Shown piece after piece: positions 42,001 through 63,000 of a stretch of 64,000 bases of DNA; within the stretch, counting starts at the first letter, position 1; the number at the start of each line of letters is the position of its first letter. This stretch comes from Octopus vulgaris. Its lineage: Eukaryota. Made by a program: the position numbers. The DNA is taken from positions 21,514,001 to 21,578,000 of the forward strand of contig OX597824.1 in assembly GCA_951406725.2 (NCBI GenBank), in the 5' to 3' direction.

Positions 42001-45000
42001 CTTCTGTCATAAAAGTAGAATTATTCTGTCATATAAGTCTGTCATAAAAAAAAGGGAAAGCTTGGAGAGTGTTTCTGGATGGATGAGTGAATTCGATGTT
42101 GCTCAAAGGGGTACAAAACTAGCATGATGCAGCAGGGGTAAACCAACATATGCTGTCTGGCCCTGCTACTGATATTGGGGGTTGCGCTCTATGCTTTGAC
42201 CATAGGACAGGGCTTGCCTCTCTGAGCTGGGAAATGAATGGAATGCCTGGTGTGTGTCTTGTTGTGGCTACCCCCTCCTAAAAAAATGGGGAATAGACCT
42301 GGGTATATGTATGTATATGTATAAAATATATGTAGAAAATTATTGGATTTCTAGTTTAGCAATTTAACTTTCTGCATTTGCTGAACCCTTTTGTTATCAT
42401 ATTTCTGGTAAATTGCCCTTTTTTTTGTTTCATTTAATTTTGAAAATAATGAAGAATTTTAAAAAATACCTTTACCATGATTAAAAGTGGTATTTGTAAC
42501 ATAATGACCATGAAATTTTAATGGACATTTTTAATATAGATCATTTTCATCAGGAAGTTTGTGTCACAGAAGTCATAGAACCAAGGGTAGTGCCAGATGG
42601 TTTGGTATCAAAAGGGTTAAGAGGAAATAAACAACATGGTTATTTTTTTCCTGTTTTTCTTTTATTTCTTTTTTAGAAAAAATTTCTGTGGAAATGTGAT
42701 AATTCTTTGTTTTATGAAAAGTATTGATGTTTTATGAAATGTATGTCTAAATTAATTTTGTCCTTTTTATTTTTGCAGTTCCTACGAGCGACGATCTTGG
42801 TTGTACTCCTGAATCCTCTCCTGAGTGAGTAAATGTTTTGGTAACTTTTTTGGGAATTGTGTCTGTGATCAGGTCTTCAATGCACAACAGAGACCCTCCA
42901 TCACATTATATTTTTGTACAATACTATCTCAAAAAAATCTGAATATAATGGCGTTTATGTACTCTAACCCTTTAGCATTCAGATTAAATTAATTTTCATG
43001 AATTATGTGTCTTAATTATGTAATTATTGAATCGGTTATGCTTATTCCTAATGAAACAGCTGTTGAAAGTACTTAACTGATGATCTATCTGTGAAATTTA
43101 TGCTTTTCTACCTTTTATAATAAACATACACATTATATATATGTATATATATTATTCAAAGGAATTCCAATTCTGTCTGTTTTTTATGTTTTATTTATAT
43201 GCTTTATAATATTAATGTAGAATATAGAATATAAATAAAACATAAAAAACAGACAGACTTGGAATTCCTTTGAATAATATATACCCCTCCGTACACAATC
43301 ATACAAACCCCTATATATATATATATATTTACAACTTATAGACAAGGGCCCTTGTTTATAAGTTGTTTATAAATTTAACATTTAAAGGTATTTTTTAATA
43401 TGCTGGCCATTGATAGAATTTTTTCGAAAAATTTTATCCTATATTGGACGTATATATATATATATATATATGTTGTCATTTGTTGCTGTGGCTGTAAAAC
43501 CATGTTCATATATTTTCAGAATGACAAAACGGTCATGGTTTGGTGCTCTAATGGGAACAGAGCGAGAAGAACATCACTTTGTTATCGTACGTGACAAACC
43601 CTTGAGTCAAGTGAAAGCAGATTTAGTTCATGCTTTCCTTTCAGTAAGTGCAGCCCTTTTTTTAATTTTTTTTTTTTTGTTAATTACAAAAAATAGAACT
43701 ATTAATTATTTCCCTATGATTTTATTTGGTTAATTGCTGCAGAAAAATTGTTTGTATTGTTTTCTTATTTTAAATTGATTTTAAACTCGTCTTACTATGT
43801 TTACCATATCTCTAATTCTACTGTACCATGCTAGATGTTCTTGTGTTAATTGCTGTTGCCTTGTGTGTGTGTAATGTCCATTGATATCTTTTGGCTGATG
43901 TTTTTCCTTCCTATTTATCAAAGAAAGCACATGCACACAAGCACTTTCACATACACCTAGTGGCAGCATCTGTTTAGGAACTGCAGAACTGCAGCACCCC
44001 CTATTTCCACTCGATATTATCGATAACATTCAATATAATGAGTCCATTTTTCTTTAATTCTTTCTTTATACTTGTACATTGTATAATCGGAGGCGCAATG
44101 GGCCAGTGGTTAGGGCAGCAGACTCGCGTTCATAGGATTGCGGTTTCGATTCCCAGATCGGGCGTTGTGAGTGTTTATTGAGCGAAAACACCTAAAAGCT
44201 CCACGAGGCTCCGGCAGGGGATGGTGGTGATCCCTGCTGTACTCTTTCACCACAACTTTCTCTCACTCTTACTTCCTGTTTCTGTTGTACCTGTATTTCA
44301 AGGGGCCTGCCTTGTCACTCTCTGTGTCACGCTGAATATCCCCGAGAACTACGTTAAGGGTGCATGTGTCTGTGGAGTGCTCAGCTACTTACACGTTAAT
44401 TTCACGAGCAGGCTGTTCCGTTGATTCGGATCAACCGGAACCCTCATCATCGTAACCGACGGATGCTTCCATCTATCCACATTAATGTCAACAGCCATTC
44501 CCTAGTTTATGAAAAAAATACAAAAATATTTGTATAGAACTGTGCACTTTACAGTTCCAGCGATGAGGTGTTTCGCTGTTGTGCACATGCTCACATGTCT
44601 GAGATGGGAAGCTTCATGCTAGGGAGAGACAGCACTGTTGTTCACGCAGTGCTGGTGAAAGGTAGTGTTTCTTTTTCACTTCACGTGTGTTGTACTTAAA
44701 AACGTGTTTATATTCTTGAATGTGAATAAAGTGTAGAATTAGATTATTATCCTGCTTCCAGCTTCAGTGTTGTTGAAAAATAGGGCTGAATTTTCCCTCT
44801 TATATTGTAATTTAGGGGTGGGGGGATTTTTGAAAATCAAGGGGGGAATTTGCAGCAGTGTTCAGTGAATAAATTAAACACACTACCCGGCTGTGACTAA
44901 AACATAAACTGATCGAGTTTATGTATAAATATTTATTTTTATATGTTTGTTTCCTTTTACACAATATTAAAACAGTAGCTAACATTTTTTCTGAAGCTGC

Positions 45001-60000: not shown

Positions 60001-63000
60001 CTTCTTCTTCTTCTTCTTCTTCTTCTTCTTCTTCTTCTTCTTCTTCTTCTTCTTCTTCTTCTTCTTCTTCTTCTTCTTCTTCTTCTTCTTCTTCTTCTTC
60101 TTCTTCTTCTTCTTATTATTATTATTATTATTATCATTATTATCATTATCATTATTATTATTATTATTATTCATTTTCTTCTTCTCATCATCATTATTAT
60201 TATTATTATTATTATTATTATATGATAATTTTTATTTTACTTTAAGCAGTAACTCCCTAAGCTTTTTATACCCCATTCTTTCATGGGCTACAATCCTTTT
60301 TTTTTTTTTGAAACAGCCCCCTCCACTGCTAATCGGGTTACCTTGGTAACAAAAGCTATTAAAGCCTTCCAAGAATTTGATAGAATCTATTTTCTTAAGA
60401 TTCTTATTGATGATTGCTCAGGTGCACCTGCCACATATGACGTTTACATTTATTGTCAGCTTACCTGTGACCCCCACAACAACTGTTGTGTAGCCACCGT
60501 TTACACTGAGTGCACAGGTTCACATTCACATATATGCACACCTGGTCTAAATTTCATAAATAGTCCCGCTTGAATAAGTCTATGGCAGAGGTTATCTACA
60601 TCACCCAGTATGATTTCAGTAGAGATTTAGTATGCATGTACATTTGTGGGCATGTGTGTGTATATGTATGTATATATATACATATGCATATGTTTATATA
60701 TATATATATATATATATACACACACACAAATGTTTATATATATATATTTTATCTATCTATCTATCCGCTCAGTCAAGTCGACTCCCGGTCACTCGATGGA
60801 TCAGTTTTCTCCAACCAGTTCTATCCTGGGTCGCTTCTTTCAGATTGGTCATGGCCACTCCCGTGTTACTCTTGATAGTGTCAAGCCAGCGGGTTCTTGG
60901 TCGTCCTCTTCTTCTCTTGCCACTGACCATTCCGAGCATGATGTCCTTCTCCAGGAATTTTCTCCGCATAATATGACCAAAATATGTCAATCTTTGCTTG
61001 CATAGATTGGCATATATTTTATGTATATATTTATATATATGTTTTGACATATATACATATATATATGTATATATATATACATATGAGTGTGTGAGTGTGT
61101 GTGTGTGTGTGTATATATATATATATATATATATATATATATATATATTAGACAAAACATAAATAAGGGTCATTACATATTTCTTTATTGTAAATTTGAC
61201 TTCCAGATATTTCCACTAGTCATCATAGGTTCGTTATTCATTGGTTTACTCAATTGATTGGTTGAAAAAAATTAAACCTACTGGATTAATGCTACTCTTG
61301 TCACAGTCACATGTGTTTTACATATATATATATATATATATATATAGTTATCAGTAATAATATAGGGTGAAATTAATTAATTTGGAATAATCATTAATTT
61401 CACCAAGTAGATTTCGGCATGTAAAAGCCTCATTCAAGGAAAGTTTAAGTAATACTAAGTAATTAAGAGTTTAGCAACGATTTGCCTCACCACACACCGA
61501 ATACACACCGAATTTAGAAATAGCAGTCAAAGAGTTATAGCTATTCTTTCTACTAGTAGAAAGAATAGCTATAACTCTTTGACTGCTATTTCTAAATTCG
61601 GTGTGTGGTGAGGCAAATCGTTGCTAAACCCTTAATTACTTAGTATATATATATATATATATATATATATATATATATATATATATATATTATCTATATT
61701 TTACTATGGCTGGGTCACCAGTGTATTTTGACTGGAATCTAACAAGAGAAATCTAGTCTCATAGTCAGTTCAGAGTTGCCTCCCTTCCCAGTTTTCAACG
61801 TTGATGAAATGATGAAATCTCTCCAAACTTACTTGATGCATTTGCAACTTTTAGACTATAACAAGGATATTTCTCTATGACATAATGCAGTGAATGACCT
61901 TATATATATATATATATATATATATTGATAGTGACGTTGAAGTTTTGGTCAGCTAAACCATAATTAGACTGATGCATTAAGGTAATTTTTGTCTTTATAT
62001 AGTACCTGTGGAGATATAATTTTTCTGGGATTTGTTCAGTTGAATGGTAATTAAGTTGTAGAGTAGGTTGTGATGGAGAGGTGTTGTGGAGAAATTTTTC
62101 ATTGATTAAATTTGGGGTTATGTTATTGTTCAGAATTTATTCATGCATGTACACCTTTGTAAACAGGTGTGTATATTTAGGGGTGTCAACTTCAGGTCAT
62201 GAGATTGCTTTTTAGTGGTTCACAAAAAGGAAGCAGGTATGGTAGAGGAAGTTTTTTTGTCTGAAGATATGTCTTATTTTTAGTTATTATTGTGGTCTTA
62301 TCAGATTCCATTCTTTGCTTTGGCAATGTAAAAGAATATATATTGTCCACTCAGCAAATGGACATTAAGCCACGTGTGCAATACAAGCACTGCCTGCTTA
62401 GTTCAGATGTCACTTGGTTTAAACCACTTCCTTGTCCTTGAGTGCCTCTATTGGAGCCTGTTCTCTTGTAGGCATTTATGCCAGGTGTCCTGTGAGAGGA
62501 TAACTTTCTCCTTTCCTCTTACCATTCCTTGAGAACTTGAGTCCTTGAAAACTGCCATCTCTATATATATAAACGGCAAAATGTATGTCTGTGTGTGTGT
62601 CCTTTATACAAATCCACAATTTTTCAGTTAGAGGGCTCGTGCACATCTTTACATTTCCCCAGTCACCCCGCAAAGCCATTAAAAAATCAATAGAAGTAAC
62701 TTTTTTGTGAATTTTCTATCCCAAACCCAATCAAAATGCCCGAAACTTGATACACCAATTGAATGCCAGCTAGCTGTATGTGATTGGTCAGAAATTTGGA
62801 CAGTACTTGCATGTATGTGCACACGCCCGTAGCTGTATATGCATGCACTAGCACTAGTGCTAGTTAGTACAATTTGTCCTCTTGTGACTTATTGAAAAAC
62901 GTTTATGCAAAGTCTAGTTTGTCTTAATTGAACAGGGTTGACATATATTTTTTATAAGTGGAAGGCAGAACAATCAAGTTGATCATTGCCGAGATTTGAA

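What the first reader, a model, noticed from the sequence alone, without database searches (positions are those of the whole stretch)
43143..61646. Recurrent long hairpins of unrelated sequence, often seeded at (TA)n tracts, along the kinase transcript
Seen: near-perfect inverted repeats at 43143-43284, 49541-49792, 52557-52717 and 61452-61646, plus 991-1154, 14992-15445 and 22693-23144. They have different sequences, no evident TSDs, and most abut TA runs. Three lie within ~350 nt of coding exons and two neighbour hammerhead-like motifs. Inference: a microsatellite-targeting Penelope-like system that integrates by fold-back inversion could be a systematic source of dsRNA substrates for cephalopod ADAR editing or small RNAs.
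Basis: inference. Interest (0 to 1): 0.7.

Follow-up and report, generated by a model that had tools for sequence, protein, structure and literature searches.

The report
Palindromic repeat hairpins in octopus introns
Several short self-complementary repeats sit in the introns of an octopus brain-kinase gene; they look like ordinary dead mobile-element copies that would fold into double-stranded RNA, not like a new hairpin-making system.

Summary
All seven inverted repeats are real (9 complex inverted repeats in the window against 0 in each of 30 composition-matched controls). They lie in introns or downstream sequence of an octopus BRSK2 (SAD kinase) gene on the + strand. Their sequences are unrelated to each other, and 4 of 7 abut a (TA)n run (P about 0.006).

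The hammerhead claim fails. Rfam and a core-motif scan find none, and no reverse transcriptase, GIY-YIG or transposase domain was found in 410 of 503 ORFs scanned. Closeness to exons is not above chance (3 of 7, P = 0.12).

The hairpins fall into two kinds:
- Five clean, symmetric palindromes (991, 43143, 49541, 52557, 61452) begin and end with TA and have no longer target duplication. I read them as palindromic MITE-like elements, probably Tc1/mariner-type (confidence 0.45).
- Others are retroposon products. 55250-55414 is an inverted twin of SINE-like 3' ends with a 14-bp target duplication. The 14992 family occurs tandem, inverted and as a solo arm with 9-bp direct repeats.

A PLE-type or local template-switch origin of the first group cannot be excluded, because no cephalopod genome was searchable. 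Each hairpin would form 60-120 bp of dsRNA, a known kind of ADAR hyper-editing substrate.

The parts
43143..43284 (.). Hairpin, single copy in the window, 142 nt. A TA run lies on the left (43134-43152); 27 nt of unique sequence and then (TA)8 lie on the right.
   Evidence: MFE -74.1 kcal/mol. Arms match at 64 of 69 aligned positions, arm-to-arm JC distance 0.076. Flanks read. No other copy by BLAST or nhmmer.
49541..49792 (.). Hairpin, single copy in the window, 252 nt. (TA)16 ends 5 nt to the left; 98 nt of unique sequence and then TA runs lie on the right. It is 328 nt downstream of exon 49018-49212.
   Evidence: MFE -162.1 kcal/mol, z -28.2. Arms match at 110 of 124 positions, JC 0.122. 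Flanks; exon distance.
52557..52717 (.). Hairpin, single copy in the window, 161 nt, with no TA run nearby. TA sits at both ends. It is nested inside a larger inverted repeat (52406-52467 / 52946-53007).
   Evidence: MFE -86.2 kcal/mol. Arms match at 62 of 69 positions, JC 0.109. Outer inverted repeat. Nearest TA run is 775 nt away.
61452..61646 (.). Youngest hairpin, 195 nt, palindromic through its centre. There is 1 mismatch between the arms plus an 11-nt tandem duplication in the left arm. (TA)23 abuts the right end; 105 nt of unique sequence and then (TA)12 lie on the left.
   Evidence: MFE -142.5 kcal/mol, z -26.3. Arms match at 85 of 86 positions, JC 0.012. Flanks.
991..1154 (.). Hairpin, single copy in the window, 164 nt. 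(TA)6 abuts the left end.
   Evidence: MFE -90.2 kcal/mol. Arms match at 70 of 80 positions, JC 0.137. TA run at 980-992.
14992..15445 (.). Two tandem hairpin units of one repeat family (about 14996-15192 and 15197-15445). The first lies 66 nt downstream of exon 14809-14925. The left end is shared by all copies; the right arm of each unit is shorter.
   Evidence: Arm-to-arm JC distance of the second unit is 0.066.
53977..54134 (.). Third copy of the 14992 family: one arm plus part of the loop only (53986-54125), flanked by identical 9-nt direct repeats (53977-53985 and 54126-54134).
   Evidence: 88% identity to both tandem units. Direct repeats; alignment.
22693..23144 (.). Two facing arrays of a 32-nt tandem unit (6.1 copies, then 7.5 copies inverted), built like a foldback element. 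No flanking direct repeat. A dispersed repeat copy starts 7 nt to the right.
   Evidence: TRF. MFE -365 kcal/mol. Arm-to-arm JC 0.083. No direct repeat of 6 nt or more. Neighbouring repeat.
55236..55430 (.). It is flanked by a perfect 14-nt direct repeat (16 nt if 2 nt of the hairpin are counted). The arms are the terminal ~70 nt of an abundant dispersed repeat.
   Evidence: Direct repeat; piece alignment. nhmmer hits at the ends of repeat copies at 4817-4886, 18961-19056, 37252-37328 and 41070-41141, E 2.5e-8 to 3.2e-5.
28879..29830 (.). Two inverted copies (258-nt arms, 88% identical, 438 nt apart) of part of an abundant SINE-like repeat that carries a (TG)n(TA)n tract. This is a hairpin formed by two separate repeat copies.
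10187..56648 (+). BRSK2 (SAD kinase) coding exons mapped in the window: 10187-10249, 14809-14925, 15982-16095, 21641-21691, 26964-27038, 35553-35801, 42772-42825, 43521-43646, 46708-46905, 49018-49212 and 56568-56648. The kinase domain lies upstream of the window. The last exon of the long isoform lies beyond its end.
   Evidence: Pfam UBA_BRSK and KA1_BRSK hits. 97% identity of one exon to Octopus BRSK2 proteins. tblastn of named reference proteins.

Best explanation
The window is a very repeat-dense stretch of an octopus BRSK2 gene, and the hairpins are dead copies of short, non-coding mobile elements from several unrelated families.

Two kinds can be told apart:
1. Five are clean, end-to-centre palindromes: 991, 43143, 49541, 52557 and 61452. 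They begin and end with TA and have no longer target duplication. I read them as palindromic MITE-like elements, most likely of the Tc1/mariner type. Such elements integrate at TA dinucleotides and favour TA-rich tracts. Their 2-bp TA duplication is itself palindromic and therefore hidden in the hairpin.
2. The others are retroposon-derived. 55250-55414 is an inverted/tandem twin of 5'-truncated SINE-like 3' ends with a 14-bp target duplication. The 14992 family occurs tandem, inverted and as a solo arm with 9-bp repeats. 28879-29830 is two inverted SINE-like copies. 22693-23144 is a foldback-like pair of 32-nt arrays.

Transcribed within the BRSK2 pre-mRNA, each would fold on itself into 60-120 bp of nearly perfect dsRNA. 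That is the kind of substrate ADAR hyper-edits promiscuously. The hairpins pair with themselves, not with exons.

Shown: the structures, the TA association, the target duplications of the second kind, and the absence of PLE hallmarks. Inferred: the class of the first kind, transcription, and editing.
For: Structure and chance:
- 9 complex inverted repeats against 0 in each of 30 controls. Fold z-scores are -26 and -28.

First kind (five palindromes):
- The palindrome contains TA within its first 4 nt at both ends in 5 of 5.
- No flanking direct repeat of 6 nt or more that is adjacent and non-microsatellite.
- 52557 sits 775 nt from any TA run and still shows only TA at its ends. A target-primed insertion there should have left a longer duplication.
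- The proven retroposed twin in the same window looks different: unequal pieces plus a 14-bp duplication.
- None has coding capacity or any Pfam domain.
- Arm-to-arm JC distances are 0.012-0.137. Per arm this lies in the range of the TIR and SINE expansions reported for O. vulgaris, JC 0.065-0.09, not the PLE/LINE one at 0.2 (PMC13282606 passages).
- Tc1-Mariner is the largest TIR group in O. vulgaris: 119 Mb in 362 families, about 4% of the genome (supplement table). Several short derivatives per 64 kb are therefore expected, and no other Tc1/mariner remnant was found in the window.

Second kind.

dsRNA and ADAR:
- Palindromic ~200-bp Harbinger repeats fold on themselves and are the most edited repeat in Xenopus. 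Octopus has one of the two strongest hyper-editing signals (PMC5625713 passages).
- Repeats, especially DNA transposons, SINEs and LINEs, are the most editable elements, young ones most of all (PMC9989829 passages).
Against: - Copy number, the defining test of a mobile element, could not be run. None of the five palindromes has a second copy in the 64 kb, even by nhmmer at E<=10, and no cephalopod genome is searchable here.
- A TA duplication cannot be told from the palindrome itself, and 4 of the 5 lie in TA-rich context.
- The TA run abuts one end only. In 3 of those 4, another TA run follows 27, 98 or 105 nt beyond the other end (P about 0.001-0.01, with a threshold chosen after seeing the data). 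That looks like a unit of 'hairpin plus one-sided tail' dropped into a TA tract. This is how PLE insertions are described, with a 30-40-bp tail at one end (PMC8557442 passages). A cut-and-paste element bounded by its inverted repeats would not look like that.
- A SINE-like family in the window also carries a TA run at one fixed end in 7 of 9 copies. TA-associated retroposition is therefore active in this genome.
- No transposase gene or related longer element is in the window.
- The O. vulgaris annotation calls only 0.19 Mb 'MITE'.
Confidence: 0.45

Rival explanations
1. The single-copy palindromes are products of target-primed reverse transcription by a (TA)n-targeting retroelement: a Penelope-like element of the Naiad, Hydra or Neptune type, or a microsatellite-targeting LINE. 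Two severely 5'-truncated copies of an element's 3' end are laid down head to head, or the cDNA snaps back on itself. A short tail is left at one end.
For: - 4 of 7 hairpins abut a TA run.
- 3 of these 4 have 27-105 nt of unique 'tail' and then a second TA run.
- PLE insertions are described as 5'-truncated, tandem and/or inverted, with a 30-40-bp tail at one end. Naiad and Hydra prefer (TA)n, and target duplications are often undetectable in microsatellites (PMC8557442 passages and section 11).
- Octopus families Naiad_Obim, Naiad_Ovul, Naiad_Omin and Hydra-1_Obim are listed with (TA)n preference (supplement).
- PLEs make up 6.83% of the O. vulgaris genome.
- A retroposed inverted twin does exist in the window: 55250-55414.
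Against: - No hammerhead at any threshold used.
- No RT or GIY-YIG domain in 410 of 503 ORFs.
- The palindromes are symmetric to within a 4-15-nt centre. Two independent truncations would not give that, and the proven twin is asymmetric.
- 52557 has no TA run and no long duplication.
- At 61452 and 991 one junction lies in unique DNA with no duplication.
- Two of the three tails (98 and 105 nt) are far longer than the 30-40 bp described.
- Naiads are described as long inactive in cephalopods, whereas 61452 is young (JC 0.012).
Confidence: 0.22
2. The palindromes are not mobile at all. Each is a local inverted duplication made in place by template switching of a replication fork stalled at a hairpin-prone (TA)n tract. 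The nascent strand copies back 60-125 nt and returns to the TA tract by microhomology.
For: - It explains unrelated, window-unique sequences.
- It explains the absence of target duplications.
- It explains a TA run on one side only, with unique sequence continuing from the other arm, the very short centres, and TA at the outer ends.
- Template switching as a source of hairpins is recalled from the literature (Loytynoja and co-workers). It was not read here.
Against: - 52557 has no TA run within 775 nt.
- Arms of 62-125 nt are much longer than the template-switch events I recall.
- Five such events in 64 kb would imply an extraordinary genome-wide rate.
- The window is otherwise full of ordinary dispersed repeats, so mobile elements are the simpler source.
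- It does not predict the second TA run beyond the far end.
Confidence: 0.13
3. The hairpins are selected RNA genes or regulatory elements: hairpin-RNA or microRNA precursors, or 'editing inducer' stems kept because they raise ADAR editing of neighbouring BRSK2 exons.
For: - Rfam gives sub-threshold microRNA-family matches on the stems, for example 61508-61600 at 61.5 bits against a gathering score of 130.
- Three hairpins lie within 350 nt of exons.
- Long intronic stems that raise editing at nearby sites are described in mammals (PMC5654063, PMC3479170; search listing and abstract starts only).
Against: - Every Rfam match is far below its gathering score and appears on both strands, as any long hairpin would.
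- Arm mismatches have accumulated to JC 0.07-0.14 with no sign of compensatory maintenance.
- Exon proximity is not above chance, P = 0.119.
- No conservation data could be obtained.
Confidence: 0.05
4. Assembly artefact: palindromic chimeras introduced by long-read sequencing or assembly.
For: Near-perfect palindromes can arise from missed hairpin adapters or fold-back reads (general knowledge). 61452-61646 is almost perfect.
Against: - The arms differ by 1-14% and by indels, including an 11-nt tandem duplication in one arm.
- The sizes are 142-454 nt rather than read-scale.
- The window has no N.
- Two hairpin elements have target duplications.
Confidence: 0.02

Closest known systems
Palindromic MITEs of TA-inserting DNA transposons (Tc1/mariner-derived, such as human MADE1; recalled, not read here)
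   Same: Short, non-coding and almost entirely two inverted arms with a tiny loop. TA sits at both ends. Many unrelated families occur per genome. They fold into microRNA-like or long hairpins.
   Different: Genomic copy number, a matching autonomous element and a true TA duplication were not demonstrable here. The arms are longer (62-125 nt) than in MADE1. The TA run is one-sided, with a 27-105-nt unique stretch before the next TA run.
Palindromic ~200-bp Harbinger repeats of Xenopus tropicalis, the most hyper-edited repeat of that genome (PMC5625713, passages read)
   Same: A self-folding repeat of similar size needs no inverted neighbour to make tight dsRNA with a short loop. This is the closest functional precedent for 'palindromic repeats feed ADAR'.
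   Different: Different superfamily and host. Editing of the octopus hairpins is not shown. Octopus was left out of that paper's repeat-class analysis.
Penelope-like element insertions: Naiad, Hydra and Neptune clades (PMC8557442; passages, section 11 and supplement table read)
   Same: (TA)n preference, inverted and tandem 5'-truncated copies, a one-sided short tail, and target duplications hard to see in microsatellites. (TA)n-targeting families are listed for Octopus.
   Different: No RT/GIY-YIG ORF, no pseudo-LTR and no hammerhead in the window. The palindromes are symmetric. One has no TA tract. Two of the tails are 98-105 nt, not 30-40.
Foldback elements of Drosophila (recalled, not read here), for 22693-23144 only
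   Same: The inverted termini are themselves arrays of a short tandem unit (32 nt here).
   Different: No flanking target duplication was found, no internal region, and no second copy in the window. A dispersed repeat abuts it, so it may be a rearranged part of that repeat.
Inverted or rearranged retroposon insertions made during target-primed reverse transcription (twin-priming-like events of LINE-mobilised elements; recalled), for 55250-55414 and possibly the 14992 family
   Same: 5'-truncated pieces share one 3' end, lie in opposite and tandem orientation, and are flanked by a 9-16-bp target duplication.
   Different: Here the pieces overlap in content, so they form a hairpin. The partner reverse transcriptase is unknown.

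Membership tests
MITE (non-autonomous class II element, Tc1/mariner type) | Short (under about 800 bp) and non-coding | tested here: met
   The five are 142-252 nt. Their ORFs are 50 aa or shorter inside the hairpins, and there is no Pfam hit.
MITE (non-autonomous class II element, Tc1/mariner type) | Terminal inverted repeats | tested here: met
   The arms pair from the ends to the centre, with 87.5-98.8% identity.
MITE (non-autonomous class II element, Tc1/mariner type) | TA target-site duplication | tested here: inconclusive
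   TA lies within the first 4 nt of the palindrome at both ends in 5 of 5. But TA is self-complementary and 4 of the 5 lie beside TA runs. No empty site was available.
MITE (non-autonomous class II element, Tc1/mariner type) | Many dispersed copies in the genome | not testable with these tools
   0 further copies in the window for the five. No cephalopod DNA collection was on hand. The protein collection is blind to such repeats: the positive control also gave nothing.
MITE (non-autonomous class II element, Tc1/mariner type) | Termini shared with an autonomous transposase-encoding element | not testable with these tools
   No transposase domain in 410 of 503 ORFs of the window. No octopus repeat library was available.
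Penelope-like element insertion | RT plus GIY-YIG endonuclease ORF, or a recognisable remnant | tested here: not met
   Only 4 Pfam hits pass their cut-off, all from BRSK domains, among 410 of 503 ORFs of 45 aa or more. The 93 ORFs of 45-69 aa between 19517 and 38578 were not scanned.
Penelope-like element insertion | Hammerhead ribozyme in the pseudo-LTR (canonical clades and Hydra; absent in Naiad) | tested here: not met
   Rfam gathering gives 0 matches. There is no hammerhead among all matches at E<=10 around the four focal hairpins or in a SINE-like array. The core-motif scan gives 0 hits.
Penelope-like element insertion | Insertion into (TA)n | tested here: inconclusive
   4 of 7 abut a TA run on one side (P = 0.0058). 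3 of those 4 have a second run 27-105 nt beyond the other end (post hoc). Three hairpins have no TA run.
Penelope-like element insertion | Tandem and/or inverted 5'-truncated copies sharing the 3' end, with a 30-40-bp tail at one end | tested here: inconclusive
   The arrangement of copies is met by 55250-55414 and the 14992 family. However, the arms of 55250 belong to a SINE-like repeat. For the five palindromes only 43143 has a tail of fitting size, 27 nt.
Foldback element (for 22693-23144) | Long inverted termini built of short tandem repeats | tested here: met
   A 32-nt unit occurs 6.1 times, then 7.5 times inverted.
Foldback element (for 22693-23144) | Flanking target-site duplication and further copies | tested here: not met
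   No direct repeat of 6 nt or more at the ends. No other copy in the window.
ADAR hyper-editing substrate | Long, nearly perfect intramolecular dsRNA in a transcribed region | tested here: met
   Predicted stems of about 60-120 bp, z -26 to -28. They lie between or just after mapped BRSK2 exons on the same strand. Transcription is inferred, not shown.
ADAR hyper-editing substrate | Clustered A-to-G mismatches in RNA | not testable with these tools
   No RNA-seq data were accessible.

The most novel reading that the evidence does not exclude
The five window-unique palindromes are not copies of repeat families at all. They are made one by one, either by snap-back reverse transcription during (TA)n-targeted retroposition or by template switching at stalled TA tracts. 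Octopus genomes would then carry a continuous generator of fresh, sequence-unique long hairpins inside neural genes. That would help explain why octopus shows one of the strongest hyper-editing signals of any animal (PMC5625713). It would also supply new dsRNA for ADAR recruitment near exons.
Probability: 0.12. Interest if true: 0.7.

Novelty: new member of a known kind. Interest (0 to 1): 0.3.

Why it matters
If the reading is right, this is ordinary. A repeat-rich octopus gene carries palindromic MITE-like elements and rearranged SINE pieces, as many animal genomes do.

The useful residue is a concrete lead. Self-folding repeats occur about once per 8 kb in this neural gene. Octopus was left out of the repeat-class analysis in the study that ranked it among the two strongest hyper-editors. 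Whether self-folding repeats, rather than pairs of inverted SINEs, carry that signal is therefore directly testable with existing genomes and RNA-seq.

The window also gives a clean example of how retroposition itself can make a hairpin: 55250-55414.

Tried and rejected
- Whole-frame six-frame Pfam scan. I replaced it with stop-to-stop ORFs.
- Copy number through the protein collection. The 50-aa ORF of 61452-61646 found nothing. A 56-aa ORF of the 14992 family, which has 3 copies in the window, also found nothing. That collection therefore cannot see these repeats, and the negative result means nothing.
- Hammerheads. Rfam at gathering threshold and at E<=10, plus a core-motif scan, found none. 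In one search only the best 150 of 330 matches were visible. The neighbourhoods of 991, 14992 and 22693 were not rescanned with full visibility.
- Shared terminal motifs among hairpins. Only scattered 8-mers were shared.
- Similarity of the one-sided 'tails' to the hairpins or to anything else in the window: none.
- A paralogous empty site for 52557-52717. The neighbouring repeat copy stops 20 nt before the hairpin, so it is not informative.
- Long target duplications around 'hairpin plus TA run' units: none seen on reading the flanks.
- tRNA genes: none found by ARAGORN.
- Reading octopus PLE consensus DNA from the supplement of PMC8557442. Cells are cut at 400 characters, so 3' ends cannot be seen. 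The PLE protein sequences printed there were not used in any search, because they are neither window nor stored sequences.
- Fold-back seeded at TA. Rejected because the TA run lies at an outer end and never at the axis.

Full report
**Where we are.** The window has no N and 28-43% G+C. Pfam finds BRSK-specific UBA and KA1 domain pieces on the + strand. One exon ORF searched alone is 97% identical to BRSK2 of Octopus vulgaris, O. sinensis and O. bimaculoides. Mapping named Octopus BRSK2 proteins onto the window places eleven coding exons between 10187 and 56648. The kinase domain lies upstream of the window. The last exon of the long isoform lies beyond its end. 61452-61646 lies 4.8 kb past the last mapped exon. 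It is intronic for the long isoform and 3'UTR or downstream sequence for the short one.

**The observation.** All seven inverted repeats are at the stated places and fold almost end to end. Two were refolded with controls and give z = -28.2 and -26.3, with 0 of 200 shuffles as good. A gapped minus-strand self-comparison finds 9 complex inverted repeats of at least 100 bits within 1200 nt. Each of 30 Markov controls gives 0. Many more palindromic hits are simply (TA)n-rich microsatellite blocks.

The hairpins are unrelated to each other. Arm-to-arm divergence runs from JC 0.012 (61452) to 0.172 (55250). They are therefore real, of different ages, and not assembly chimeras.

**TA runs.** The window holds 124 (TA)>=4 runs, 3.4% of its bases. 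Random placement gives 0.85 on average, P = 0.0058. With the two extra hairpins it is 5 of 9, P = 0.0021. So the association is real.

Its geometry matters. The run abuts one outer end only and is never at the axis. A fold-back 'seeded' at the TA tract is therefore not what the sequence shows. In 3 of the 4, a second TA run follows 27, 98 or 105 nt beyond the other end. The null probability per hairpin is 0.05-0.13, giving P of about 0.001-0.01, but the 105-nt limit was chosen after seeing the data. TA runs are also part of ordinary repeats here. One SINE-like family has a TA run at the same end in 7 of 9 copies and at the other end in 0 of 9.

**Hammerheads, PLE genes and exon proximity.**
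- Rfam at gathering thresholds finds nothing in the window.
- At E<=10 the neighbourhoods of all four focal hairpins and one SINE-like array list 18, 23, 24 and 2 matches. None is a hammerhead. The matches are sub-threshold microRNA families that any long stem attracts.
- The whole-window E<=10 run gave 330 matches, of which I saw the best 150, none a hammerhead.
- A scan for the conserved core with a helix II of 4 bp or more gives 0 hits. Shuffles average 0.24.
- Of 607 stop-to-stop ORFs of 45 aa or more, 503 passed a low-complexity filter and 410 were scanned. Only four pass a Pfam cut-off, all from BRSK. There is no reverse transcriptase, GIY-YIG nuclease or transposase. The 93 unscanned ORFs are 45-69 aa long and lie between 19517 and 38578.
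But 3 of 7 within 350 nt is not unusual: mean 1.27, P = 0.119.
- No hairpin is complementary to an exon.

**Two kinds of hairpin: the retroposon-derived kind.**
- 55250-55414 is flanked by a perfect 14-nt direct repeat, or 16 nt counting two bases of the hairpin. It consists of three pieces that all end in the same terminus: 56 nt inverted, 22 nt direct and 87 nt direct. Its arms match the ends of an abundant dispersed repeat at four other loci, E 2.5e-8 to 3.2e-5. That repeat looks tRNA-derived to me. This rests on recalled promoter-box consensus, and ARAGORN calls no tRNA. I read 55250-55414 as an inverted/tandem twin of 5'-truncated retroposon 3' ends with a long target duplication, made during target-primed reverse transcription.
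- The 14992-15445 element is two tandem hairpin units. A third copy at 53986-54125 has one arm only and 9-nt direct repeats. All copies share the left end.
- 28879-29830 is two separate inverted copies of a SINE-like part.
- 22693-23144 is two facing arrays of a 32-nt unit, like a foldback element, without a target duplication.

**Two kinds of hairpin: the five clean palindromes.** These are 991, 43143, 49541, 52557 and 61452. They are symmetric to a 4-15-nt centre. They are single-copy in the window even by nhmmer at E<=10. They have no adjacent direct repeat longer than TA, and all have TA within the first 4 nt at both ends.

**Most likely explanation.** I read the five as palindromic MITE-like elements that insert at TA, probably Tc1/mariner-type.
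- The 2-bp duplication is self-complementary and so disappears into the stem.
- 52557 is 775 nt from any TA run and still ends in TA with no longer duplication. This argues against target-primed insertion there.
- The proven retroposed twin in the same window looks quite different.
- Tc1-Mariner elements are the main TIR group in O. vulgaris, at 119 Mb in 362 families. PLEs make up 6.83%, simple repeats 7.45% and unknown repeats 15.1% (PMC13282606 supplement table; main-text passages and section 6).
- Per-arm divergence of 0.006-0.07 lies nearer the reported TIR and SINE expansions (JC 0.065-0.09) than the PLE/LINE one at 0.2.

My confidence is only 0.45, because the defining test, genomic copy number, could not be run.

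**Rivals.** The PLE or target-primed reading keeps real weight (0.22).
- PLE insertions are described as tandem or inverted, 5'-truncated, with a 30-40-bp one-sided tail. Naiad and Hydra prefer (TA)n, and target duplications are hidden in microsatellites (PMC8557442 passages and section 11).
- Four such families are listed for Octopus species (supplement).
- The 'hairpin plus tail between two TA runs' pattern fits this better than it fits a cut-and-paste element.

A purely local template-switch origin (0.13) also explains unique sequence, no duplication and a one-sided TA run. The arms are long for that mechanism, though, and 52557 has no TA tract. Selected RNA genes (0.05) and assembly artefacts (0.02) are unlikely.

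**Function.** Whatever their origin, the stems would form 60-120 bp of near-perfect dsRNA in the BRSK2 primary transcript.
- Palindromic ~200-bp Harbinger repeats that fold on themselves are the most edited repeat in Xenopus.
- Octopus and frog show the strongest hyper-editing signals.
- Even in cephalopods most editing is in non-coding sequence (PMC5625713 passages).
- Repeats, especially young ones, are the most editable elements across animals (PMC9989829 passages).

So 'repeat hairpins feed ADAR' is established biology, not a new idea. What is not known from what I read is which repeats do so in octopus. Two searches for cephalopod work on palindromic or inverted repeats and editing surfaced no such study. 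A search on MITEs in octopus gave only the 2026 annotation paper. The hairpins pair with themselves, so they could affect recoding only indirectly, as ADAR-recruiting stems of the kind described in mammals (PMC5654063; listing and abstract start only). Nothing here tests that.

**What stayed unchecked.**
- No cephalopod genome, read set or repeat library could be searched.
- The protein collection cannot see these repeats.
- Not tested: copy number, empty sites, matches to PLE 3' ends, editing, small RNAs, and genome-wide enrichment.
- Supplements of the bioRxiv preprint 10.64898/2026.07.22.740005 (passages read) are closed. Long cells of the PMC8557442 supplement are cut.

**Verdict.** It is wrong on hammerheads. 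The finding is most likely an ordinary mix of palindromic MITE-like elements and rearranged SINE pieces in a repeat-rich octopus gene. Interest is 0.3.

Noticed in passing
It is made of three 5'-truncated pieces of an abundant repeat's terminus (inverted 56 nt, direct 22 nt, direct 87 nt) between perfect 14-nt direct repeats. It is a clean example of retroposition creating a hairpin.
   Followed up: yes
window 2203-2369, 9040-9206, 19858-20022, 23802-23967, 28640-28805, 29837-30002, 30603-30767, 45582-45747, 47378-47543: Nine copies (89-94% identity to the first) of a ~167-nt SINE-like repeat whose reverse strand looks tRNA-derived (my reading; ARAGORN calls no tRNA). 7 of 9 carry a (TA)n run at the same end. 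In several copies a ~260-nt second part follows the TA/TG tract, giving a ~450-nt composite (9022-9474, 29570-30019, 30344-30776, 19858-20251).
   Followed up: partly
window 4514-4890, 18957-19770, 37250-37644, 40796-41380 and about ten shorter copies: The most abundant repeat of the window (15 or more copies or pieces, 72-92% identity). It is often in partial tandem arrays, for example a 188-nt unit x 3.0 at 19161-19720. Its terminus supplies the arms of hairpin 55250-55414. No hammerhead in it at E<=10.
   Followed up: partly
window 10345-10817: A 161-nt unit repeated 2.9 times at 98% identity. It overlaps a 67-nt repeat (10735-10895) and leads into a dispersed repeat that also abuts the foldback-like element at 23151-23382.
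   Followed up: no
window 18127-18545, 26384-26655, 48035-48499, 57077-57253, 63558-63714: Long imperfect (TA)n-rich microsatellite blocks that are trivially self-complementary. They attract sub-threshold Rfam microRNA matches (mir-297, mir-466, mir-3149 and others, 30-63 bits against gathering scores of 85-100). These are composition artefacts, not microRNA genes.
   Followed up: partly
window 52406-52467 and 52946-53007: A 62-nt inverted repeat (87% identity) encloses a 602-nt stretch that contains hairpin 52557-52717. This is either a nested element or an older inverted duplication. No flanking direct repeat was seen.
   Followed up: partly
window 52468-52536 and 54133-54201: A 69-nt stretch, 91% identical at two loci. 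One copy lies just upstream of hairpin 52557 and the other directly after the solo-arm copy of the 14992 family. Both begin with a motif that also starts the 14992 family. A possible shared terminus or target, unexplained.
   Followed up: partly
window 23996-24303: A 12-nt unit repeated about 26 times (73% matches) directly after a SINE-like copy and its TA run.
   Followed up: no
window 61490-61512: The left arm of the youngest hairpin carries an 11-nt tandem duplication that the right arm lacks. This is the only length difference between its arms.
   Followed up: yes
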